Below, piece after piece: positions 14,309 to 28,140 of a stretch of 64,000 nucleotides of DNA (its first letter is position 1; the number at the start of each line of letters is the position of its first letter). This stretch comes from a virus, in the UHGV virus genome UHGV-0120889; one strand, written 5' to 3'. Under the pieces are notes generated by a model, which was not told the DNA's origin, did no database searches, and saw nothing but the letters and a program-made list of their open reading frames with translations. A program made the translations under genes and the position numbers.

Positions 14309-15397
14309 TTAGATAAAACGCTTGAACATAGAAGGTGATGAGATTGATGGAATCACACAAGGAAGTGCTACTTCCTCTTTCTCCAGGAAATTAATAGCAG
14401 AAGCTACACAGTCAGCCCAGTCGTCTTTTCTGTTAAATGTTGATCTTTCCCCGTTGAATTTTTCAAGTTCAGTCAGAAATGCTTCCAGAGTATCAGGATG
14501 GAAACTGGATTTTACAATCCTCACCATTCCTTGTTGGGCAAGATTGGCAAAAGGTGAGAACCTTGTCAGTTTAGATTTGTTGGAAGGCATTGGGTCTTCT
14601 TCAACCCTAAACCCTTCGGCAAGCAAGGATCTGGAGGAGGTTAAGAACTCACTCTTACCTGCCTGACCGGGGTCCACAGAGAATACGATTATACAATCAT
14701 CACCATCAAACTGCGCCTGTTTCCTGATGATCACATCTCGTTCACCAGCCTTTTTACAGAACTTGCCTTCTAGACCTGTGGAATACCTCCCGTCATCCAC
14801 GTTCTCAGGACAATAATCACCGGACAGGTAATAAAAGCCGTCGCTATCTTTACTTACCTTAACACTGGCGGTAAAGTCAGGAAATTTATTACCGGAAGTT
14901 CTCTCGGTTCCTGCCTTATCCCATGCCCTGCAAGATACTGATCCAAGGGGTACTCTATCGGCATCACGAAGGAAAGATCTTTGAAAATAGTTTGCGCCCT
15001 CAGGCTTTGCAAACCAGTTACCATGAAGAAGCTGAGCTTTTTCCAGTTCCGGCAGACCTTCAAGGAAAGCAAGGTATTCTGGGTTGTCTCTTAAGCAAAC
15101 AGGATTATCGAATATTGTTGCGCCTATAAACGAGAATGACAACGGTCTTGGCTTGATCTCCACACCAAGTCCGTTAACCGTGGTGTATTTCTCTATCAAC
15201 TCTTCTTTAGAGTCCCCCCAGATAAATTCACCGTCGCGTCGGATAAAATATCTTTTCTTACCGCATTTCTCCGGATCTGGATACCCTTCATCGTCCAACC
15301 ACCACCTAACCAGTTTGGCAAGCATGTGTTCTGAATCGGGGTTACAGCTGATAACCATTCTTGATGGATACTTTGACTGAGATCGCAGACGAGACAT
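14309..15397 (-). CDS. terminase large subunit, C-terminal (nuclease) segment; 5' boundary approximate (exon 2)
   Basis: Same strand, immediately downstream of the ATPase segment after a ~340 bp ORF-less gap; frame open upstream of first Met to 15433. Confidence 0.75.
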   Translation of the reverse strand: MSRLRSQSKYPSRMVISCNPDSEHMLAKLVRWWLDDEGYPDPEKCGKKRYFIRRDGEFIWGDSKEELIEKYTTVNGLGVEIKPRPLSFSFIGATIFDNPVCLRDNPEYLAFLEGLPELEKAQLLHGNWFAKPEGANYFQRSFLRDADRVPLGSVSCRAWDKAGTERTSGNKFPDFTASVKVSKDSDGFYYLSGDYCPENVDDGRYSTGLEGKFCKKAGERDVIIRKQAQFDGDDCIIVFSVDPGQAGKSEFLTSSRSLLAEGFRVEEDPMPSNKSKLTRFSPFANLAQQGMVRIVKSSFHPDTLEAFLTELEKFNGERSTFNRKDDWADCVASAINFLEKEEVALPCVIPSISSPSMFKRFI

Positions 15398-15746
15398 CAG
15401 ATAGTCTATCTGCTCCCATTCGAATTGTGTCGTTTATGTTCGGGCAAGGTCGCTAGTCTTGCCCCGCCATTTTCAGGCAGCTGCATGTCTCCATGCAGAC
15501 CAGACTATATCTTATAAGCGACAACAACCGCTTATCCTCCCGTTTCGAATCGCTTGATTCTACGTCTTTCGACTAGTCGTTGAACGTTCATCCTCTCGGA
15601 TGCTTCGCTGCGGATTATCTAAATTAACACACTGTTACCATACCTTCGATCTCTCTTCGAAGCCTCTATCATGTTACCATGACAGGTTGGTGGTATTAAT
15701 AGTAAAGATTTCCCCGCAATTAGGGAGGTTTTACGAGAGCTACAAA
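15398..15746 (-). other. ORF-less intervening sequence inside terminase large subunit gene (putative self-splicing intron)
   Basis: No ORF in any frame; multiple perfect hairpins (CTGCATG/CATGCAG, CTTCGA/TCGAAG, GGGCAAG/CTTGCCC); separates Walker-A/B ATPase part from C-terminal part. Confidence 0.5.
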
Positions 15747-16175
15747 TTAACCCTCATCGAAGCAAACCATGGTGTACTCAAGCCCTTGATGGTTAAGCTT
15801 ATCTTGTACATACTCCATGTGGCAGTATTTTACAACAGCTCCCTTTTTGCTTCTATCCCACTTGCCAGTGTTCGGATCAAACCGTGGAAAAATGAACTTA
15901 TGATCCTTCTCTCTGAACTTTGGCTTAATGTTTTCAGGCAGATCACTATAAATAGCTACCGCTTTAGGCCATAGTCCACCCTCACCTTCCAACTGCGGGG
16001 TTGTTCTTCGGAACATAACCACAGAGCTGTGGGGGTCATCAATAATTTTAAGTGGCATCAATTGCAAGAGGAACGACTTGCCAGACCCTGCGGCACCGCC
16101 GATTACCAAAATATCTGCATCGTTTTCGAGGATCATCTTCTGCTTTTCAGAACACGGTCCGTAAATCTTAGACAT
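15747..16175 (-). CDS. terminase large subunit, N-terminal ATPase segment (exon 1; 3' boundary approximate)
   Basis: Walker A VIGGAAGSGKSF and Walker B-like VCFDE motifs characteristic of large terminase ATPase domain. Confidence 0.8.
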   Translation of the reverse strand: MSKIYGPCSEKQKMILENDADILVIGGAAGSGKSFLLQLMPLKIIDDPHSSVVMFRRTTPQLEGEGGLWPKAVAIYSDLPENIKPKFREKDHKFIFPRFDPNTGKWDRSKKGAVVKYCHMEYVQDKLNHQGLEYTMVCFDEG

Positions 16176-17278: not shown

Positions 17279-17355
17279 TGGTCTCCACGGAGTGATTCGA
17301 ACACTCGACCTCCTGATCCCAAATCAGGCGCTCTACCAAGCTGAGCTACGCGGAG
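17279..17355 (-). tRNA. tRNA-Pro (anticodon UGG)
   Basis: Manual cloverleaf: acceptor CTCCGCG/CGTGGAG, D-arm GCTC..GAGC, anticodon loop UUUGGGA, T-loop TTCGAAT, encoded CCA. Confidence 0.85.
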
Positions 17356-17366
17356 TATTTATTATT

Positions 17367-17441
17367 TGGTGGCCCTGGGTGGAATTGAACCACCGTCTGG
17401 CGATTATGAGTCGCTTGCTTGAACCTTCCAGCTACAGGGCC
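17367..17441 (-). tRNA. tRNA-Met (anticodon CAU; could be Ile-lysidine type)
   Basis: Acceptor GGCCCTG/CAGGGCC, anticodon loop CUCAUAA, T-loop TTCAATT, encoded CCA. Confidence 0.8.
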
Positions 17442-17442
17442 A

Positions 17443-17518
17443 TGGTGCTGATGGCAGGACTTGAACCTGCAACCTATTGATTACAAATCAATTGCACTAC
17501 CAATTGTGCTACATCAGC
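17443..17518 (-). tRNA. tRNA-Thr (anticodon UGU)
   Basis: Acceptor GCTGATG/CATCAGC, D-arm GCAC..GTGC, anticodon stem ATTGA/TCAAT loop UUUGUAA, T-loop TTCAAGT, CCA. Confidence 0.85.
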
Positions 17519-17524
17519 AAAAAA

Positions 17525-17623
17525 GGTGCTAGGTGATGGAATCGAACCACCTATGTATTCAACGACTACCTCGTCTATTTTCAGGATTAAAAATCCTCGC
17601 CCTTGCCAAAGGGCTTACCTAGC
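17525..17623 (-). tRNA. atypical tRNA-like gene (possible anticodon UUU; ~30-nt extra arm)
   Basis: Acceptor GCTAGGT/ACCTAGC, D-arm GCCC..GGGC, T-arm GGTGG-TTCGATT-CCATC present, but 99 nt long with oversized variable region and no encoded terminal A. Confidence 0.3.
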
Positions 17624-17721
17624 TCAGTATGTTGACCATGTTGCTAGTCGGCGATGACGACTGTAACATTTGATAATCCGGTTCTGCTTCCGGCTTTCGC
17701 TTAATTACAAGGTCAACAATA

Positions 17722-17812
17722 TGGCTGAGGGTAATGGAATCGAACCATCATCGAGTCATCCTCAACGGGACGGTTTTCAAGACCGCTTGAGCACCATTGC
17801 TCCCTACCCTCA
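17722..17812 (-). tRNA. tRNA-Ser (anticodon UGA), type II
   Basis: Anticodon arm GCGGT-CUUGAAA-ACCGT, long variable arm, T-loop TTCGATT, acceptor TGAGGGT/ACCCTCA, CCA. Confidence 0.75.
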
Positions 17813-17926
17813 TTTATAAACAATACTGATAATGACACTGATTTTCGAGCAGTTAGTGACTAGTATAAACGACGATAAATATCAATGCCATTATCTGTAT
17901 GATTTATGCATTTAAAACTATAAATT

Positions 17927-18013
17927 TGGTGGGGAGTGGTGGAGTCGAACCACCCGAGTCGTAATGACAATAGATTTACAGTCTACACCGCTACCTCTAC
18001 GGGATAACTCCCC
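17927..18013 (-). tRNA. tRNA-Tyr (anticodon GUA), type II
   Basis: Anticodon loop CUGUAAA and variable arm TGTCATTACGACTCG closely resemble bacterial tRNA-Tyr; acceptor GGGGAGT/ACTCCCC, CCA. Confidence 0.85.
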
Positions 18014-18017
18014 AATT

Positions 18018-18092
18018 TGGCACCCCGTACTGGACTCGAACCAGTGTCAACGGCTTAGAAGGCCGCTGCTTTATCCACTAAGCTAACAGGGC
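18018..18092 (-). tRNA. tRNA-Arg (anticodon UCU)
   Basis: D-arm GCTT..AAGC, anticodon arm GCGGC-CUUCUAA-GCCGT, T-arm ACTGG-TTCGAGT-CCAGT, CCA. Confidence 0.8.
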
Positions 18093-21037: not shown

Positions 21038-21592
21038 TTACTCCACGCTGTCAATAGCAAGACTCATTGCAATACGGTATGCCTCTTCTAATGGTAAGAG
21101 TCTCCCCCACACATCCCAACCGACATCAAACTGCCTGCCAAACAACTGCTGTGTGGTTCCGTGAGCATGACCGAACAGTTGGACCGATCCGTGAGGCTTT
21201 CTGTTCCACTTTGCAAACTGGTAATGGCTCATACAGATCAAATTCTTGTTGTGGCGAAGCTCGTAATAATCTACAACCTCATGACCGAACTCTTTCATAA
21301 TTCTGACAGTCGTCCTTGTGTCATGGTTACCACGAACAAGAATAATATGTCCGTTCAACATATTTAGAACATCTGGGAGCAATTTGTTAATATTCTTATC
21401 ATTAGTGCACGCAATATCTCCTAAGTGAAACACAGTGTCTGCAGGTGACACAACAGAGTTCCACTTGGTGATGATCCCCGCATTCATACTGTCAAGATTG
21501 TGATCATACTGAGATCTGTGTTTTTGACATGAGTCAAACTCCATGACCCGCTGGTGGAGAAAGTGTGTGTCGCTTGTTACAAAGTATTTCAT
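21038..21592 (-). CDS. calcineurin-like metallophosphoesterase (putative polynucleotide 2',3'/3'-phosphatase)
   Basis: Metallophosphatase motifs VTSDTHF, HLGDIA, VRGNHD, GHAHG; start at internal ATG 21592 with GAGGAA RBS. Confidence 0.65.
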   Translation of the reverse strand: MKYFVTSDTHFLHQRVMEFDSCQKHRSQYDHNLDSMNAGIITKWNSVVSPADTVFHLGDIACTNDKNINKLLPDVLNMLNGHIILVRGNHDTRTTVRIMKEFGHEVVDYYELRHNKNLICMSHYQFAKWNRKPHGSVQLFGHAHGTTQQLFGRQFDVGWDVWGRLLPLEEAYRIAMSLAIDSVE

Positions 21593-21599
21593 ACATTCC

Positions 21600-22010
21600 T
21601 CATTTAAGTTTAATGCAGTTTTTAAGCTGGCGTTCCATACGATCCACAACCCTGTCTGGAACATCATGAATGCTTTTACTACCATGGCGGTTTTCAACCA
21701 CGATTACGGTATAACTATACCCATGACTGATCGCCATGTCAATATATTCTTGCACATATTTTTCTTTTGTAAATGTATTACTTACCACGATACGGTCGTA
21801 TCCCATACGCATCATATCTTCTACGTTATCTTTGCACCATTTTGCTGCAAGTGTTACTTTACTTGCATCCCAGTTGTAATTTCCATCATCGTCGTACCAG
21901 AACATGTCGTTCTCAAAATGTGGATACAGACCTTCTAAAGATAGCGCACTTGCCAGTGTTGATTTGCCAGACCCTGGTAGACCACGCACGATATATAGCA
22001 TTTTAGACAT
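21600..22010 (-). CDS. P-loop polynucleotide 5'-kinase-like protein
   Basis: Walker A GLPGSGKST, VVSNTF and ENRHGSKS...R motifs resembling Pnk kinase domains; ATG 22010 with GGAGG RBS. Confidence 0.55.
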   Translation of the reverse strand: MSKMLYIVRGLPGSGKSTLASALSLEGLYPHFENDMFWYDDDGNYNWDASKVTLAAKWCKDNVEDMMRMGYDRIVVSNTFTKEKYVQEYIDMAISHGYSYTVIVVENRHGSKSIHDVPDRVVDRMERQLKNCIKLK

Positions 22011-22110
22011 AGTAATCCTCCGTTTTAATTTCAACGATAGTATACCTAACTGTTTTGTTAATTTCAAGTGTTGACACTAGGTTATTTGTGTGGCAGGATA
22101 GACTGACAAA

Positions 22111-23046
22111 ATGACAAATGAGGAACGTATGATGAAGTATTTTAATGCAGACGACCTAGTTGACAAAGGTCTTGTAACCAGCAGATATCACCCAGACCTT
22201 GGGTTAAAGATCTATAAATATGCCAGAAAAGTATTCTACAACAACTTATGGCATTTGTCTCCTCGATTACTGGAGTGCCGAGGCATTGTTGTCGGTAATG
22301 AAGGAAATGTTGTGGCATGGCCCTTTACAAAAGTGTTTAACTTGGGAGAAAACTCCACCAACCTGCCTGACAATAAGCTTGTGACGGCGGTAGAGAAAAA
22401 GAACGGATTCCTTGGTGTGGTGTCATCTCATAAAGGTGAACTATTGTTCTCAACAACCGGGTCTCTTGATTCTCCATATTGTAACCTTGCAAAGGAAACC
22501 ATCCAGGAGCAATGTGGTAATTTAGATCTTATCAAGAAGGTTATGGGCAATGAAAATATGACATTCATGTTTGAAATTTGTCACCCATCAGATCCGCATA
22601 TTGTTCAGGAAGATCATGGCGCATATTTGATAGGTTGCAGATATAATGATTCTGGAATAATGCTACCAGAAGCAGCTTTAGATTGGATTGCCAAATACCT
22701 TGGTGCAAAACGTCCTCACACTGTGCGTGAAATTCCGTTCAGTTATGCAAAAGAATTAGCTGCAGAAACAAGAGGTGAAGGGTATATGATTCGTAAGCCT
22801 TACTACCCTTATGATCTGCAGCTGAAGATTAAGTCTCCATACTATCTGGCACAGAAGGCCGTAATGAGGGGTAAAGCTTGGAAGATTTGGGATGATGATA
22901 TCTTTAAACGTGTTGACGAAGAGTTTTACGGCATGGTAAACTTCATTCGTAACAACTACACAGAGGATGTATGGAACTGCCTCCTGGAGCAGGAACGCCG
23001 TGAGATACTCGATTACTATTTCCACAACGAGAACTATATGCAATGA
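22111..23046 (+). CDS. RNA ligase, Rnl1-like nucleotidyltransferase
   Basis: Motif I KKNGF (lysine ~97), motif IV EGYMIRK, motif V LKIKSPYY; divergent from kinase/phosphatase genes. Confidence 0.6.
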   Translation: MTNEERMMKYFNADDLVDKGLVTSRYHPDLGLKIYKYARKVFYNNLWHLSPRLLECRGIVVGNEGNVVAWPFTKVFNLGENSTNLPDNKLVTAVEKKNGFLGVVSSHKGELLFSTTGSLDSPYCNLAKETIQEQCGNLDLIKKVMGNENMTFMFEICHPSDPHIVQEDHGAYLIGCRYNDSGIMLPEAALDWIAKYLGAKRPHTVREIPFSYAKELAAETRGEGYMIRKPYYPYDLQLKIKSPYYLAQKAVMRGKAWKIWDDDIFKRVDEEFYGMVNFIRNNYTEDVWNCLLEQERREILDYYFHNENYMQ

Positions 23047-23393
23047 AGAAGTTGATTGTGTGGCTAGATGACTTGAGAGATCCGTCAAAGTACGGGCTCC
23101 AAGACGCTGTTTGGCTAAAGAATTCCTCCGAGTTTATAGATTTTATTAACGATAATAGAAAGCTCTACAGACGCGTTTCTGAGTGGCATATGGACAACGA
23201 CCTTGGAGAGGTATTCGAAGGGTACGATTGCCTATCTATGTTGGAGGAAAAATTTGTATTTGGTAAGCCTCCTGTAGTTGACAACGTGAAGATTTTCGTG
23301 CATACTTCTAACCCATCAGCGGCTCGTAAATTCATGCTTGCAGCTGACTCGTTTAAAAAGTTTGGAATAGAGATTAAACAAAACATCTACTGA
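23043..23393 (+). CDS. hypothetical protein (116 aa)
   Basis: ORF track; overlaps ligase stop. Confidence 0.45.
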   Translation: MKKLIVWLDDLRDPSKYGLQDAVWLKNSSEFIDFINDNRKLYRRVSEWHMDNDLGEVFEGYDCLSMLEEKFVFGKPPVVDNVKIFVHTSNPSAARKFMLAADSFKKFGIEIKQNIY

Positions 23394-23401
23394 GGACACT
23401 T

Positions 23402-24163
23402 ATGCGACGACTGATTATTATCTCCGGTGCTGGTTTGAGCGCTGAATCTGGTATTCCCACTTTCCGATCTGGTAGCACTGCAATGTGGGAGAATTTCAGC
23501 ATCGATGAGGTGTGCAACATCCACACCTTTGCCAAGAACTACTATAAGGTGCATGACTTTTACAATGCACGTCGTGTAGCTTTAGGCAGTGTTGAGCCTA
23601 ACCTTGCACATCTTCGGATCGCTGAGTGGTATTCCCGCTGGTCTGGTCGTGTGATCAACCTTACCACCAATGTAGATGATTTGCTGGAGCGTGCTGGTGT
23701 AAAACATGAAGATATTTTACATGTCCACGGGTATTTGCCAGAAATAGTCTATGAGGACGATGAAGGAAGTGACGTCATTAAGGACATTGGATACTCTGAG
23801 GTAGACGCAGGAAAGTATACCTGGGTTAAGCCTAATGTGGTGTTCTTCGGAGAAGTAGCTCCGAAGTATACAGACATGTATGACCTGTTGACTTCTCTTA
23901 CGAGCAATGATATGGTTATCCTTGTAGGGTGCTCCAACACAGTTATCAATTTTAACTGGGAGCTATTCCCTGCCTGCAATAAGGGAACCAAACTACTGAT
24001 CGTTAATAAATACGACTCACAGCATCTAGAGGAGAATGGCATTTCACGTAGTGATATTTACCAGTATGAGGATCGTGGCATCCCAGTTTGGTTTAACGGT
24101 GCGGTTGATGCCTTCTCTGATAAAACATTCATTGAGACTGTAGAAAACTTTATGGAACTTTAA
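23402..24163 (+). CDS. Sir2-family (sirtuin-like) NAD-dependent protein
   Basis: NAD-binding motif ISGAGLSAESGIPTFRS, catalytic HG (LHVHGYL), FFGE and LVGCS motifs; no CxxC zinc-ribbon pairs visible. Confidence 0.7.
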   Translation: MRRLIIISGAGLSAESGIPTFRSGSTAMWENFSIDEVCNIHTFAKNYYKVHDFYNARRVALGSVEPNLAHLRIAEWYSRWSGRVINLTTNVDDLLERAGVKHEDILHVHGYLPEIVYEDDEGSDVIKDIGYSEVDAGKYTWVKPNVVFFGEVAPKYTDMYDLLTSLTSNDMVILVGCSNTVINFNWELFPACNKGTKLLIVNKYDSQHLEENGISRSDIYQYEDRGIPVWFNGAVDAFSDKTFIETVENFMEL

Positions 24164-24176
24164 AAGGAGACCTTTA

Positions 24177-24890
24177 ATGCTGAATACTAAATTAATTGAC
24201 AACCTGGAAAAACTATCCCAACCTGAAAACTACCTTTGGTCTGCCAACTGGGTGGAAAACTGGAACCGTGTGGCAGCTAAAGTGAAAAAATCATACACAC
24301 CATTCGAATTACAGCTTAGCTTCATTAAGGAAGAGTTCAATGAAGTTTTGGAAGAGCTGGAGAAAGGTGATGGTGGAGATCACCTGCTAAAGGAGGCCTG
24401 CGATCTTCACGTTGTCACAAGTTATGCAGCTTATCTTGTTAATGACAATCACGAAAAGTGGTCAAACCTGTTTGATAATCCACGAGGTCTTAAGTTCAAG
24501 ATCGGTGAGTTCTATGACACACTGATCGCTGCGAAAAACACATCCAAGCAAAGAGCGTCAGCTTACCGTTTAGCGGAGTTGTCAACAGCTTTGCTGTTCC
24601 AGCTTCGCGGCGATGTGTGCGGGATGATGCGTAAGGTTCTCAAATCGAATGACAGCAAGTTTGCACGGGTCAACCATCTACGGTATTCACACGGTGCCAG
24701 TGCAGATATGCCTGCTGAACAACTCATAGAGTTGGAGATTAAAGATCTTGAGCGACGCTTTGATGGTCGATATGAAGGTTTTGTTGCTAAGGAAGAATTC
24801 TACAACGGTAATAAAGTTATCATATTCCTTGACAGTAAAGGTAAGATCATGAAGCCTTCGAGCTTCAAGGATGTAGCAGAGTATATTTAA
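24177..24890 (+). CDS. hypothetical protein, possibly MazG-like NTP pyrophosphohydrolase
   Basis: EEFNEVLEELEKGDGGDHLLKEACDLHVV resembles MazG EExxE...D motif; weak. Confidence 0.35.
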   Translation: MLNTKLIDNLEKLSQPENYLWSANWVENWNRVAAKVKKSYTPFELQLSFIKEEFNEVLEELEKGDGGDHLLKEACDLHVVTSYAAYLVNDNHEKWSNLFDNPRGLKFKIGEFYDTLIAAKNTSKQRASAYRLAELSTALLFQLRGDVCGMMRKVLKSNDSKFARVNHLRYSHGASADMPAEQLIELEIKDLERRFDGRYEGFVAKEEFYNGNKVIIFLDSKGKIMKPSSFKDVAEYI

Positions 24891-24897
24891 CAACATG

Positions 24898-24920
24898 GCC
24901 GGGATTACCCGGCTTTACTT
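24898..24920 (+). terminator. rho-independent terminator
   Basis: GCCGGG-ATTA-CCCGGC hairpin followed by TTTACTT. Confidence 0.6.
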
Positions 24921-25262: not shown

Positions 25263-25518
25263 TCTTGCTAAACCTGTAGAAGCACACCAGTTTGACGGAA
25301 GCTCTTCATCAGTATCTGATCTGCAACGGTGGATTGATACAGGTGTGTTTACATCGTCACCTGTTCGGACCAGAGATCTTCGTCGCATGTGTGAGCTTGT
25401 AGAGCCGTTTGGTAACCTAGTCTTGTACCAGGGTGATTGGCTTGTTGATTTTATGGGGGACTGGTTGGTAATGAGTAAAGAAGAGATGTTTAAAATTTTT
25501 AAGGAAGAGGCCGAGTAA
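25249..25518 (+). CDS. hypothetical protein (89 aa)
   Basis: ORF track; stop overlaps ligase start. Confidence 0.4.
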   Translation: MPLFNLAKPVEAHQFDGSSSSVSDLQRWIDTGVFTSSPVRTRDLRRMCELVEPFGNLVLYQGDWLVDFMGDWLVMSKEEMFKIFKEEAE

Positions 25519-27675: not shown

Positions 27676-28140
27676 GTGGAAGACGGACGTTTAATGAGGT
27701 CTGAACGCAGGCTTATTGTGCAACTGATCCCAGAAACAGCTTGGTATAATAACCTCCGAAACGCTGTGAAGAAGAGTGAGTGGGATAAGATCCGTAAGAA
27801 GTGCTACAGAGAGGCAAACTACACTTGCGAGGTGTGCGGCGGTAAAGGCAGCAAACATCCAGTGGAGTGTCATGAACTTTACACTTTCGAAGAGGGAGTG
27901 ATCCGGCTTGTCGGACTGATAGCGTTGTGCCCAGATTGTCACACATCGGTACATCCTGGATTAGCAAATATCCGTGGAAAGTATGCTCAGGCAGTTAATC
28001 AGTTGGCTAAGGTGAATAAGATCACCAGAGGTATGGCAGAGGCGTATTACCGAGACTGCTTTGCAGAGTGGCGCGAGCTTAGTAAAGTTCCAGAATGGAA
28101 GACTGACTTTTCGTGGATAGAGGGTTACCTTGATAGCTAA
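27676..28140 (+). CDS. zinc-finger protein, possibly HNH-like nuclease
   Basis: CEVCGG...HPVECHELY...CPDCHTSVH Cys/His arrangement. Confidence 0.35.
   Translation: MEDGRLMRSERRLIVQLIPETAWYNNLRNAVKKSEWDKIRKKCYREANYTCEVCGGKGSKHPVECHELYTFEEGVIRLVGLIALCPDCHTSVHPGLANIRGKYAQAVNQLAKVNKITRGMAEAYYRDCFAEWRELSKVPEWKTDFSWIEGYLDS

What the first reader, a model, noticed from the sequence alone, without database searches (positions are those of the whole stretch)
21038..23046. Split Pnkp-like healing enzymes plus Rnl1-like RNA ligase: a tRNA repair cassette beside the tRNA cluster
Three adjacent genes encode a calcineurin-type metallophosphoesterase (VTSDTHF, GDIA, GNHD, GHAHG), a P-loop protein with polynucleotide-kinase-like motifs (GLPGSGKST, VVSNTF, ENRHGSKS) and, divergently, a ligase with Rnl1-like motifs (KKNG, EGYMIRK, LKIKS). 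Together these are the activities of the T4 Pnkp/Rnl1 pathway that reseals tRNAs cut by host anticodon nucleases. Here the healing enzyme is split into two polypeptides and the phosphatase is metallophosphoesterase-type (as in bacterial Pnkp) rather than the HAD-type of T4. The cassette sits 3 kb from the phage tRNA genes and a second, DNA-ligase-like gene lies at 25518.
Basis: partly seen in the sequence, partly recalled or inferred. Interest (0 to 1): 0.8.

Follow-up and report, generated by a model that had tools for sequence, protein, structure and literature searches.

The report
Phage RNA break-repair gene cassette
An rV5-type E. coli phage carries a six-gene kit (kinase, metallophosphoesterase, Rnl1-type RNA ligase, cREC, sirtuin, MazG-like) predicted to re-join RNAs such as tRNAs cut by host defence nucleases. 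It is real and widespread, but it was already described by comparative genomics for this very phage group and has never been tested biochemically.

Summary
Three intact genes sit at the stated place: a metallophosphoesterase (21038-21592, -), a 136-aa PNK-clade P-loop kinase (21600-22010, -) and, divergently, an Rnl1/Trl1-clade RNA ligase (22111/22129-23046, +). All the quoted motifs are present.

Ligase, kinase and MPE travel together in six phage lineages beyond rV5 and in 55 of 80 metagenomic viral loci. Twelve loci fuse the kinase to the ligase. Streptomyces phages pair the same ligase family with a classical kinase-HAD Pnkp.

The MPE belongs to the uncharacterised aq_1665 family, not the lambda/Pnkp type.

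Iyer et al. 2022 (Viruses 14:1977) already described this neighbourhood "prototyped by Escherichia phage V5" as a predicted NAD-linked RNA-repair system. Verdict: real, sensible, already known in silico, untested in vitro. Interest is modest.

The parts
21038..21592 (-). Metallophosphoesterase of 184 aa, the predicted RNA 3'-end healing enzyme (2',3'-cyclic or 3'-phosphate removal).
   Evidence: Pfam Metallophos and Metallophos_2 above cutoff; phrog_547 'phosphoesterase' at 5e-51. All MPE metal and catalytic motifs are invariant in 38 homologues: D8, H10, D59, N89-H90, H123, H142, H144. The closest solved relative is Aquifex aq_1665 (1XM7) at 1.4e-28. It lies 7 nt downstream of the kinase.
21600..22010 (-). 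Stand-alone PNK-clade P-loop kinase of 136 aa, the predicted RNA 5'-OH kinase.
   Evidence: AAA_33 at 2.4e-10; phrog_2071 at 1.6e-57 and phrog_505 'polynucleotide kinase' at 6.8e-10. Invariant residues are the P-loop G15-K16-S17-T18, D35, N78-T79 and E106-N107-(R108)-H109. The profile's matches covering most of the kinase are Pnkp1, PSTK, T4 Pnk and CthPnkp kinase. The top Foldseek hits are T4 Pnk and CthPnkp, TM 0.62-0.68. It is fused to the ligase in 12 of 80 loci.
22011..22128 (.). Divergent intergenic region between the kinase and the ligase; the GC-skew sign changes here.
   Evidence: A minus-strand promoter-like site TTGAAA-17-TATACT lies at 22067-22039, upstream of the kinase. A TTGACA sits at 22071-22076 on the plus strand. 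Shine-Dalgarno sequences flank both genes. The skew flips between the 20-22 kb and 22-24 kb bins.
22111..23046 (+). Rnl1/Trl1-clade ATP-dependent RNA ligase. The ORF is 311 aa; the likely start is 22129 or 22132, giving 305 or 304 aa.
23043..23393 (+). cREC domain protein of 116 aa, a predicted cyclic-phosphate-processing receiver-like phosphoesterase. It is translationally coupled to the ligase by an ATGA overlap.
   Evidence: PF20274 cREC_REC at 4.5e-15; phrog_1479 at 5e-35. The motifs WLDDLRDP, FDNDLGE, HTSNP and a conserved K are shared by relatives.
23402..24163 (+). Sirtuin of 253 aa with no zinc-ribbon cysteines. It is NAD-dependent and has been proposed as a Tpt1/KptA-like 2'-phosphate remover.
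   Evidence: PF02146 at 3e-27; phrog_2162 at 9e-110. It scores below all the CobB equivalog cutoffs. GAGLSAESGIPTFR, TTNVDDL and HVHG are present, and no CxxC pairs occur in the sequence. The proposed role comes from Iyer et al. 2022.
24177..24890 (+). MazG-like nucleotide pyrophosphohydrolase of 237 aa, the last gene of the ligase operon.
   Evidence: phrog_671 at 3.6e-22, with no Pfam hit. It is listed as part of the neighbourhood by Iyer et al. 2022.
24897..24914 (.). GC-rich hairpin (GGCCGGG-ATTA-CCCGGCT) directly after the MazG-like gene; the probable operon end.
   Evidence: Terminator-like site called on both strands.
17279..18092 (-). Phage tRNA cluster (Pro, CAU-Met/Ile, Thr, Lys-UUU with a long extra arm, Ser, Tyr, Arg-UCU). 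This is context, not part of the cassette.
   Evidence: ARAGORN, Rfam and folding.

Best explanation
This is a phage RNA 'heal-and-seal' repair cassette.

**Background (established knowledge).** Host metal-independent endoribonucleases, such as the anticodon nucleases PrrC and RloC and many toxin or defence RNases, leave 2',3'-cyclic-phosphate and 5'-OH ends.

**Inferred steps.**
1. The 136-aa PNK-clade kinase phosphorylates the 5'-OH.
2. The aq_1665-type metallophosphoesterase, possibly with help from the cREC protein, converts the cyclic or 3'-phosphate end into a ligatable 3'-OH.
3. The Rnl1/Trl1-clade ligase is adenylylated on K96, transfers AMP to the 5'-phosphate and seals the break.

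Kinase plus MPE is thus a split functional equivalent of T4 Pnkp, whose phosphatase is HAD-type.

In rV5-type phages the ligase is co-transcribed with cREC, a Zn-less sirtuin and a MazG-like hydrolase. These add an NAD-linked accessory branch whose chemistry is unknown. The published proposal is that cREC opens the cyclic phosphate to a 2'-phosphate, and the sirtuin then removes it from the joined RNA as Tpt1/KptA does.

**Shown here:** gene identities, catalytic residues, fold classification, operon layout and conservation of the module across phages. **Inferred:** every enzymatic step, and the RNA substrate (tRNA).
For: **Ligase.**
- Its profile hits only T4 Rnl1 in the PDB (1.7e-13).
- All nucleotidyl-transferase residues are invariant.

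**Kinase.**
- The P-loop, the Asp35 general-base position and the ENRHG lid region are invariant.
- Its best matches covering most of the kinase, by sequence profile and by structure, are T4 Pnk, CthPnkp kinase, Pnkp1 and PSTK.
- It shares 27.6% identity (E 1e-8) with the kinase half of a bona fide kinase-HAD Pnkp from Streptomyces phage Stanimal.

**MPE.** The active-site motif set is complete.

**Conservation of the module.**
- Ligase, kinase and MPE lie within a few kb of each other in phi92, PAK_P2, Vibrio phage River4, Acidovorax ACP17 and Acinetobacter Ab_121, as well as in rV5-likes. These are six distinct taxa.
- Of 80 IMG/VR loci with this ligase, 67 carry the kinase, 61 the MPE and 55 both.
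- Twelve loci fuse the kinase N-terminally to the ligase.
- Streptomyces phages pair the same ligase family with a classical kinase-HAD Pnkp instead of kinase plus MPE.
- The same kinase-MPE pair sits next to an Rnl2-type RNA ligase (PF09414) in freshwater viral contigs.

**Operon and published prediction.**
- The ligase and cREC genes overlap by ATGA, and the operon is tight and ends in a hairpin.
- An independent published prediction covers this exact neighbourhood (Iyer et al. 2022). The same group made the general point that calcineurin-like enzymes can replace HAD phosphatases in phage RNA repair (Iyer et al. 2021).
Against: - No biochemical or genetic test exists for any of these proteins, and none was found in the literature searches.
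- The MPE belongs to the uncharacterised aq_1665 family, not to the lambda-phosphatase/CthPnkp group known to act on 2',3'-cyclic-phosphate RNA ends.
- The kinase's separation from small-molecule kinases is modest: TM 0.62-0.68 against 0.50-0.53, and profile E-values of only 1e-4 to 1e-5.
- The family has no residue at the position of T4 Pnk Arg38. This is my own reading of the alignment.
- The 12 loci with a kinase-ligase fusion have no MPE nearby, so the MPE is not obligatory.
- An ATP-dependent DNA ligase is also a frequent neighbour.
- The ligase lacks most of the T4 Rnl1 C-terminal tRNA-specificity domain, so tRNA as the substrate is an assumption.
Confidence: 0.75

Rival explanations
1. 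A yeast-like, NAD-dependent 2'-phosphate pathway is the main route in this phage (the Iyer et al. 2022 model).
1. cREC opens the 2',3'-cyclic phosphate to a 3'-OH/2'-PO4 end.
2. The kinase phosphorylates the 5'-OH.
3. The Trl1-like ligase joins the ends and leaves a 2'-PO4 at the junction.
4. The sirtuin transfers ADP-ribose from NAD+ to remove that 2'-PO4, as Tpt1/KptA does.
5. MazG, the MPE or both clear the ADP-ribose by-products.

In this model the MPE is peripheral rather than the 3'-healing enzyme.
For: - The ligase, cREC, sirtuin and MazG-like genes form one tight operon with an ATGA overlap.
- The sirtuin keeps its NAD-binding and catalytic motifs but is not a CobB equivalog and has no Zn ribbon.
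- The prediction is published.
Against: - cREC, Sir2 and MazG accompany the ligase in only 10, 11 and 13 of 80 loci. All of those are relatives of rV5 or phi92, so shared ancestry could explain the linkage. Kinase plus MPE, by contrast, accompany the ligase across unrelated lineages.
- cREC and Sir2 do not strictly co-occur: phi92-type loci have cREC without Sir2, and some loci have Sir2 without a detected cREC.
- No sirtuin has been shown to act as an RNA 2'-phosphotransferase.
- The His-Arg-Arg triad that enforces the 2'-PO4 requirement in fungal LIG was not tested in this ligase.
Confidence: 0.2
2. The kinase and MPE heal DNA ends (5'-OH, 3'-phosphate) for the nearby ATP-dependent DNA ligase, for example during replication or repair of nuclease-damaged phage DNA. 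On this reading the RNA ligase is functionally separate.
For: - A homologue of the window's DNA ligase lies within 8 kb of the RNA ligase in roughly half of the surveyed loci, and 2.5 kb away in the window.
- T4 Pnkp and CthPnkp kinases act on DNA as well as RNA (established knowledge; DNA-bound structures appear among the hits).
- A weak MPE match to the ligase-associated nuclease MPE/PdeM.
Against: - The fusions join the kinase to the Rnl1-type ligase, never to the DNA ligase.
- Kinase-MPE pairs occur next to Rnl2-type RNA ligases where no DNA ligase is nearby.
- The PdeM and MPE-nuclease matches are far below cutoff (20.6 bits against 150).
Confidence: 0.1
3. The genes are functionally unrelated neighbours in an early-gene or anti-defence island. 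The ligase serves mainly as a tail-fibre attachment factor, like the second activity of T4 gp63. The kinase and MPE act on nucleotides or NAD/ADP-ribose-derived signals.
For: - Database names carry 'tail fiber attachment catalyst' over from T4 gp63.
- Iyer et al. call the kinase merely 'a nucleotide kinase'.
- In 36 of 80 loci the trio lies beside the NARP1 NAD+-reconstitution genes.
Against: - The kinase-ligase fusions and the replacement by a bona fide Pnkp argue for one shared pathway on polynucleotide ends.
- The characterised NARP1-associated phosphatase is a Macro-domain protein, not an MPE.
- The window itself has no NARP1 genes.
- The tail-fibre label is inherited annotation with no evidence for this family.
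Confidence: 0.07

Closest known systems
Sirtuin-centred phage RNA-repair neighbourhood, type 2, 'prototyped by Escherichia phage V5 and Proteus phage Mydo' (Iyer, Burroughs, Anantharaman, Aravind 2022, Viruses 14:1977, section 3.7.3 and Fig. 5f)
   Same: The gene set is identical: T4-like tRNA ligase, cREC, kinase, sirtuin, MazG and calcineurin-like phosphoesterase. The phage group is the same: the window is 99.9% identical to an rV5 derivative.
   Different: There is no difference in content. My survey suggests the kinase and calcineurin-like MPE are the widely conserved partners of the ligase (55 of 80 loci), rather than 'occasional' ones. The sirtuin, cREC and MazG genes are the lineage-restricted additions.
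T4 Pnkp + Rnl1 tRNA repair pathway, which counters PrrC
   Different: - The healing enzyme is split into two polypeptides.
- The phosphatase is a binuclear MPE, not a HAD-type DxDxT enzyme.
- The ligase is not a T4 RnlA equivalog (39 bits against 242). It has motif I KxNG and a C-terminal helical tail of about 65 aa in place of T4's 120-aa tRNA-specificity domain.
- Extra cREC, sirtuin and MazG-like genes are present.
Bacterial Pnkp-Hen1 (Clostridium thermocellum) and Pnkp1-Rnl-Hen1 (Capnocytophaga) RNA repair systems
   Same: They share the kinase + metallophosphoesterase + ATP-dependent ligase logic. The kinase profile matches Pnkp1 and the CthPnkp kinase.
   Different: - The bacterial systems put the activities in one polypeptide with an Rnl4-type ligase domain, or use a separate Rnl. 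Their MPE is lambda-phosphatase-like, and Hen1 2'-O-methyltransferase is an obligatory partner.
- No Hen1 was seen among the neighbouring ORFs.
Fungal/plant Trl1 (LIG-KIN-CPD) with Tpt1
   Different: The domain order is reversed in the fusions. There is no 2H CPD domain; cREC and/or the MPE stand in for it. There is no Tpt1/KptA; a sirtuin is the proposed substitute. Whether the ligase requires a 2'-PO4 is unknown.

Membership tests
Rnl1-type ATP-dependent RNA ligase (Pfam PF09511 RNA_lig_T4_1; T4 Rnl1/Trl1-LIG clade) | Profile match above the curated threshold | tested here: met
   55.7 bits against a cutoff of 28.3, covering model positions 1-227 of 227. The family profile hits T4 Rnl1 at 1.7e-13 as the only significant PDB family.
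Rnl1-type ATP-dependent RNA ligase (Pfam PF09511 RNA_lig_T4_1; T4 Rnl1/Trl1-LIG clade) | Covalent nucleotidyltransferase motifs: the motif I lysine (KxxG), the motif III/IIIa Glu, motif IV EG, motif V KxK, and the Rnl1-specific upstream Arg and Lys | tested here: met
   K96-K-N98-G99, E155, E223-G224, K239/K241, R57 and K74 are invariant in 45 sequences. They align to T4 Rnl1 K99, E159, E227-G228, K240/K242, R54 and K75.
Rnl1-type ATP-dependent RNA ligase (Pfam PF09511 RNA_lig_T4_1; T4 Rnl1/Trl1-LIG clade) | Fold closer to Rnl1/Trl1 than to other RNA-ligase clades or DNA ligases | tested here: met
T4 RnlA equivalog (NCBIfam TIGR02308) | Score above the equivalog cutoff, and the full-length C-terminal tRNA-specificity domain | tested here: not met
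   39 bits against a cutoff of 242. Only about 65 helical residues follow motif V, compared with about 120 in T4 Rnl1, and 263 of 311 residues align.
RNA ligase activity | ATP-dependent sealing of 5'-PO4/3'-OH RNA ends | not testable with these tools
   Requires biochemistry.
T4-type bifunctional Pnkp (kinase + HAD phosphatase) | P-loop 5'-kinase domain with the catalytic Asp | tested here: met
   GxxGxGKS/T and D35 are invariant. T4 Pnk is the top structural hit. E 1e-8 to the kinase half of the Stanimal Pnkp.
T4-type bifunctional Pnkp (kinase + HAD phosphatase) | Fused HAD (DxDxT) 3'-phosphatase domain (PF25109 HAD_PNKP) | tested here: not met
   The protein is only 136 aa with AAA_33 alone. 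A T4-type Pnkp query finds only the kinase gene in the window. By contrast, Stanimal gp205 carries HAD_PNKP at 2e-52.
Bacterial Pnkp (CthPnkp-type) / Pnkp-Hen1 system | Kinase, lambda-phosphatase-like MPE and ligase domains in one polypeptide | tested here: not met
   There are three separate genes. The MPE profile matches aq_1665 (1e-28) but no lambda-phosphatase or CthPnkp phosphatase chain at E≤0.01.
Bacterial Pnkp (CthPnkp-type) / Pnkp-Hen1 system | Hen1 2'-O-methyltransferase partner | tested here: not met
   None of the nine neighbouring proteins scanned has a methyltransferase domain. Only 19.4-26.8 kb of the window was scanned.
Calcineurin-like metallophosphoesterase superfamily | Motifs DxH / GD / GNH(D/E) / H / GHxH | tested here: met
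   D8-x-H10, G58-D59, G88-N89-H90-D91, H123 and G141-H142-x-H144 are invariant in 38 sequences. The Pfam scores are above cutoff.
Sirtuin-centred phage RNA-repair neighbourhood type 2 (Iyer et al. 2022) | Co-located sirtuin, T4-like tRNA ligase, cREC, kinase and MazG (with or without a calcineurin-like phosphoesterase) | tested here: met
   All six genes lie within 21038-24890. The window is an rV5-type phage, which the paper names as the prototype.
Trl1/Tpt1-type 2'-phosphate ligation pathway | Ligase dependence on a 2'-PO4, enforced in fungal LIG by the His-Arg-Arg triad | not tested
   I could not make a residue-level superposition on CthLIG with the available tools. Conserved basic residues exist in the C-tail (K249, R253, R296), but their equivalence to the triad is unknown.
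Trl1/Tpt1-type 2'-phosphate ligation pathway | A Tpt1/KptA 2'-phosphotransferase | tested here: not met
   No KptA-family hit appears among the cassette proteins. A sirtuin is the only NAD-using enzyme present, and substitution of a sirtuin for Tpt1 is hypothetical.

The most novel reading that the evidence does not exclude
In rV5-type phages two healing routes coexist. One is the widespread kinase + MPE module, which gives T4-like 3'-OH/2'-OH healing. The other is a ligase-cREC-sirtuin-MazG operon that runs a yeast-like 2'-phosphate route, in which a zinc-less sirtuin uses NAD+ to strip the junction 2'-phosphate. That would be a biochemical activity never shown for any sirtuin, and a bacterial-virus analogue of Tpt1. 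This is the published but untested Iyer et al. hypothesis. My data neither exclude it nor strongly favour it.
Probability: 0.18. Interest if true: 0.8.

Novelty: already known. Interest (0 to 1): 0.3.

Why it matters
tRNA- and RNA-cleaving effectors (PrrC, RloC, PARIS, Cas13, HEPN/PIN toxins) are a major arm of bacterial immunity. Phage RNA repair is the only experimentally known direct reversal of such damage, and it has been studied almost solely in T4.

This ligase family occurs in 683 sequenced phage genomes, usually together with the small kinase and the MPE. The split kinase/MPE/Rnl1 module is therefore probably the commonest phage RNA-repair design, yet none of its proteins has been assayed.

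Biochemical validation would extend the T4 paradigm to many therapeutic-candidate phages, including Vequintavirus, Pakpunavirus, the phi92 group and Vibrio phages. It would also test whether a sirtuin can act in RNA repair. As a discovery from this window, however, it repeats existing annotation and a published comparative-genomics prediction.

Tried and rejected
- **Single-sequence PDB searches.** Those for the ligase and the kinase gave nothing useful; family profiles were needed.
- **MPE as the NARP1-associated phosphatase.** I considered whether the MPE is the NARP1-associated 'phage phosphatase' of Osterman et al. 2026. I rejected this because that enzyme is a Macro-domain Poa1p homologue. 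The window also has no Adps or Namat homologues.
- **MPE as a lambda/CthPnkp-type or PdeM-type enzyme.** It is not: only aq_1665 matches strongly, and PdeM scores 20.6 bits against a cutoff of 150.
- **Other RNA-repair genes in the window.** I looked for Rnl2, a T4-type Pnkp and an HD phosphohydrolase using homologues from related loci. There were none apart from the kinase itself.
- **Literature.** I could not retrieve Burroughs & Aravind 2016 (NAR 44:8525). Searches for experimental work on Vequintavirinae RNA repair returned nothing relevant.
- **MPE structure.** No MPE model was made because the structure-prediction quota went to the ligase and the kinase.
- **Plus-strand promoter.** No sigma-70-type promoter passing the scan threshold was found upstream of the ligase. 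Only a TTGACA at 22071 without a good -10 is present.
Full report
**Origin of the window.** The 3.8 kb around the finding is 99.9% identical to Escherichia phage rV5_ev147/ev156 and 97-99% identical to over a hundred other Vequintavirus genomes. In those records the genes are already named 'phosphoesterase', 'polynucleotide kinase' or '3'-phosphatase, 5'-polynucleotide kinase', 'RNA ligase (1 and tail attachment protein)' and 'Sir2'. The carefully annotated BASEL phage RudolfGeigy is one example.

**The observation.** Their true starts differ from the longest-ORF starts.
- The MPE is 21038-21592 (184 aa).
- The kinase is 21600-22010 (136 aa, preceded by GGAGG).
- The ligase most likely begins at 22129 or 22132, after a GAGGA.
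- The kinase and MPE are 7 nt apart on the minus strand, and the ligase diverges from them across about 118 bp.
- The GC skew changes sign exactly here. The cassette therefore straddles the junction of two large, oppositely transcribed gene blocks.

**Ligase.**
- Pfam RNA_lig_T4_1 matches end to end (8e-15), and phrog_562 matches at 2e-66.
- A single-sequence PDB search found nothing. A 45-member family profile hit T4 Rnl1 at 1.7e-13 and no other ligase.
- That alignment places R57, K74, K96, E155, E223-G224 and K239/K241 on T4 Rnl1 R54, K75, K99, E159, E227-G228 and K240/K242. All are invariant in the family.
- It is nevertheless not a T4 RnlA equivalog (39 bits against a cutoff of 242). Motif I is KxNG, with the N invariant. 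The region after motif V is a helical tail of about 65 residues rather than T4's 120-residue tRNA-specificity domain.

**Kinase.**
- It matches AAA_33 (2.4e-10) and, more weakly, the PHROG polynucleotide-kinase family (6.8e-10).
- The family is very large: at least 7,989 hits, mostly about 130-aa 'predicted kinases'.
- The P-loop, D35, N78-T79 and the ENRHG segment are invariant.
- In the profile-against-PDB search, the matches that cover most of the kinase are Capnocytophaga Pnkp1, PSTK, T4 Pnk and the CthPnkp kinase. The best E-values go to the stand-alone RNA 5'-OH kinases of Mucorales fungi. Gluconate, shikimate and adenylate kinases match only around the P-loop.
- The AF2 model (pLDDT 84) is closest to T4 Pnk and CthPnkp (TM 0.62-0.68) and less close to small-molecule kinases (about 0.50-0.53).
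- The preference is consistent but not overwhelming.

**MPE.**
- All the canonical motifs (DxH, GD, GNHD, H, GHxH) are invariant across 38 homologues.
- The closest solved structure is the uncharacterised Aquifex aq_1665 (1XM7, 1.4e-28).
- Lambda phosphatase and the CthPnkp phosphatase do not appear at E≤0.01.
- The parallel to bacterial Pnkp therefore holds only at superfamily level.

The ligase stop codon overlaps (ATGA) the start of a cREC 'cyclic-phosphate processing receiver' gene (PF20274, 4.5e-15). Three features follow:
- a sirtuin after an 8-nt gap (PF02146, 3e-27), with NAD-binding and catalytic motifs intact, no Zn-ribbon cysteines, and scores below all the CobB cutoffs;
- a MazG-like pyrophosphohydrolase after a 13-nt gap (phrog_671);
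- a GC-rich hairpin at 24897-24914.

The functional unit is therefore 21038-24890: a leftward kinase-MPE pair and a rightward ligase-cREC-Sir2-MazG operon.

**Comparative evidence.** tblastn finds the ligase family in 683 phage genomes. I inspected six distant representatives.
- Five carry homologues of the ligase, the kinase and the MPE within a few kb. They are phi92 (Stephanstirmvirinae), PAK_P2 (Pakpunavirus), Vibrio phage River4 (Demerecviridae), Acidovorax ACP17 and Acinetobacter Ab_121. The genes usually run co-directionally in the order MPE-ligase-kinase.
- The sixth, Streptomyces phage Stanimal, instead pairs the ligase with a bona fide kinase-HAD Pnkp (AAA_33 plus HAD_PNKP at 2e-52). 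This is the natural 'swap' expected if kinase plus MPE equals Pnkp.

The survey of 80 IMG/VR loci encoding this ligase gave these counts within ±8 kb:

| Feature | Loci (of 80) |
|---|---|
| Kinase | 67 |
| MPE | 61 |
| Kinase and MPE | 55 |
| Kinase fused N-terminally to the ligase (about 430 aa) | 12 |
| cREC | 10 |
| Sir2 | 11 |
| MazG-like | 13 |

- None of the 12 fusion loci has the MPE nearby.
- The cREC, Sir2 and MazG loci are all relatives of rV5 or phi92.
- The same kinase-MPE pair (profile E about 1e-48 to 1e-72) occurs in freshwater viral contigs. In one set an Rnl2-type RNA ligase lies 1.8 kb downstream.
- The kinase-MPE pair thus behaves as a portable end-healing module that associates with RNA ligases of different families.

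**Literature.**
[quoted passage not shown] They propose that the sirtuin removes 2'-phosphates as KptA does.
- Their 2021 jumbo-phage paper already states that calcineurin-like and HD enzymes can replace HAD phosphatases alongside ATP-grasp RNA ligases and polynucleotide kinases, and it defines cREC.
- I found no experimental work on these proteins.

**Verdict.** But the cassette is larger than stated, the MPE is not of the bacterial-Pnkp type, the ligase is not a close T4 Rnl1 orthologue, and the system has already been annotated and published as a predicted RNA-repair neighbourhood for this exact phage group. Novelty: already known (in silico). Interest: 0.3, with the main residual value being that the biochemistry, especially the sirtuin step, is untested.

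Noticed in passing
window 17525-17623 (-): A 97-99-nt tRNA that ARAGORN reports as 'tRNA-???' with a 4-base anticodon. It is in fact a tRNA-Lys(UUU): the anticodon loop is UUUUUAA. It carries a roughly 26-nt variable region containing a 5-bp hairpin (GACGA-GGUAG-UCGUU). Rfam tRNA scores 35.5 bits, and the cloverleaf plus extra arm folds at -34.2 kcal/mol (z = -3.7). tRNA-Lys(UUU) is the target of PrrC and PARIS, so an oddly shaped phage copy next to an RNA-repair cassette may be a nuclease-resistant replacement.
   Followed up: partly
window 15481-15759 (-); flanking ORFs 15747-16175 (-) and 14309-15397 (-): A group I intron (Rfam RF00028, 84 bits, full-length model) splits the terminase large-subunit gene. 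The upstream ORF matches Terminase_6N positions 2-104. The downstream ORF matches positions 117-211 plus the RNaseH-like Terminase_6C domain.
   Followed up: partly
L003 (phi92), L004 (PAK_P2), L005 (River4), L007 (Ab_121) and 36 of 80 IMG/VR loci (L009-L088): In relatives, the ligase-kinase-MPE trio lies within 8 kb of a PRPP-synthetase-like plus NAMPT-like gene pair. I take this pair to be the Adps + Namat pair of the NAD+ reconstitution pathway NARP1. RNA repair and NAD+ restoration thus form a recurrent anti-defence island. The window itself has no NARP1 genes.
   Followed up: partly
L048, L049, L051, L054-L056, L058-L060, L065-L067 (e.g. L049 7530-8822 +): Natural fusion proteins of about 430 aa with the mini-kinase N-terminal to the Rnl1-type ligase. 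This reverses the domain order of Trl1 LIG-KIN. None of these loci has the MPE within 8 kb, so their 3'-end healing enzyme is unknown.
   Followed up: partly
L092-L094 (4001-5055 and 6856-7977), L002, L089-L091: The same kinase-MPE pair, with overlapping or adjacent genes, occurs in freshwater and other viral contigs. In L092-L094 an Rnl2-type ligase (PF09414 and PF21189) lies 1.8 kb downstream. The healing pair is therefore not tied to one ligase family.
   Followed up: partly
GenBank records MG065653, MG065655, MG065658, MG065666, MG065672 and others: About 18-23 records named 'Campylobacter phage', with Campylobacter jejuni as the stated host, are 96-98% identical to this E. coli rV5-type phage over the cassette. 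The host label looks doubtful; contamination or mis-assignment is possible.
   Followed up: no
window ~22000: The GC skew switches from negative (1-22 kb) to positive (22-58 kb) exactly at the kinase/ligase divergent intergenic region. This marks the boundary of two oppositely transcribed gene blocks, and possibly a replication-related switch.
   Followed up: no
window 17367-17441 (-): The tRNA with anticodon CAU is called Met by ARAGORN. The equivalent tRNA is annotated as tRNA-Ile (ATA codon, implying lysidine modification) in the BASEL record. Its identity is unresolved.
   Followed up: no
window 27676-28140 (+): A 154-aa ORF with CxxC...H...CPDCH spacing typical of HNH-type homing endonucleases, but no Pfam hit at 1e-3. 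RudolfGeigy annotates 'putative homing endonuclease' genes in the region downstream of the endolysin.
   Followed up: no
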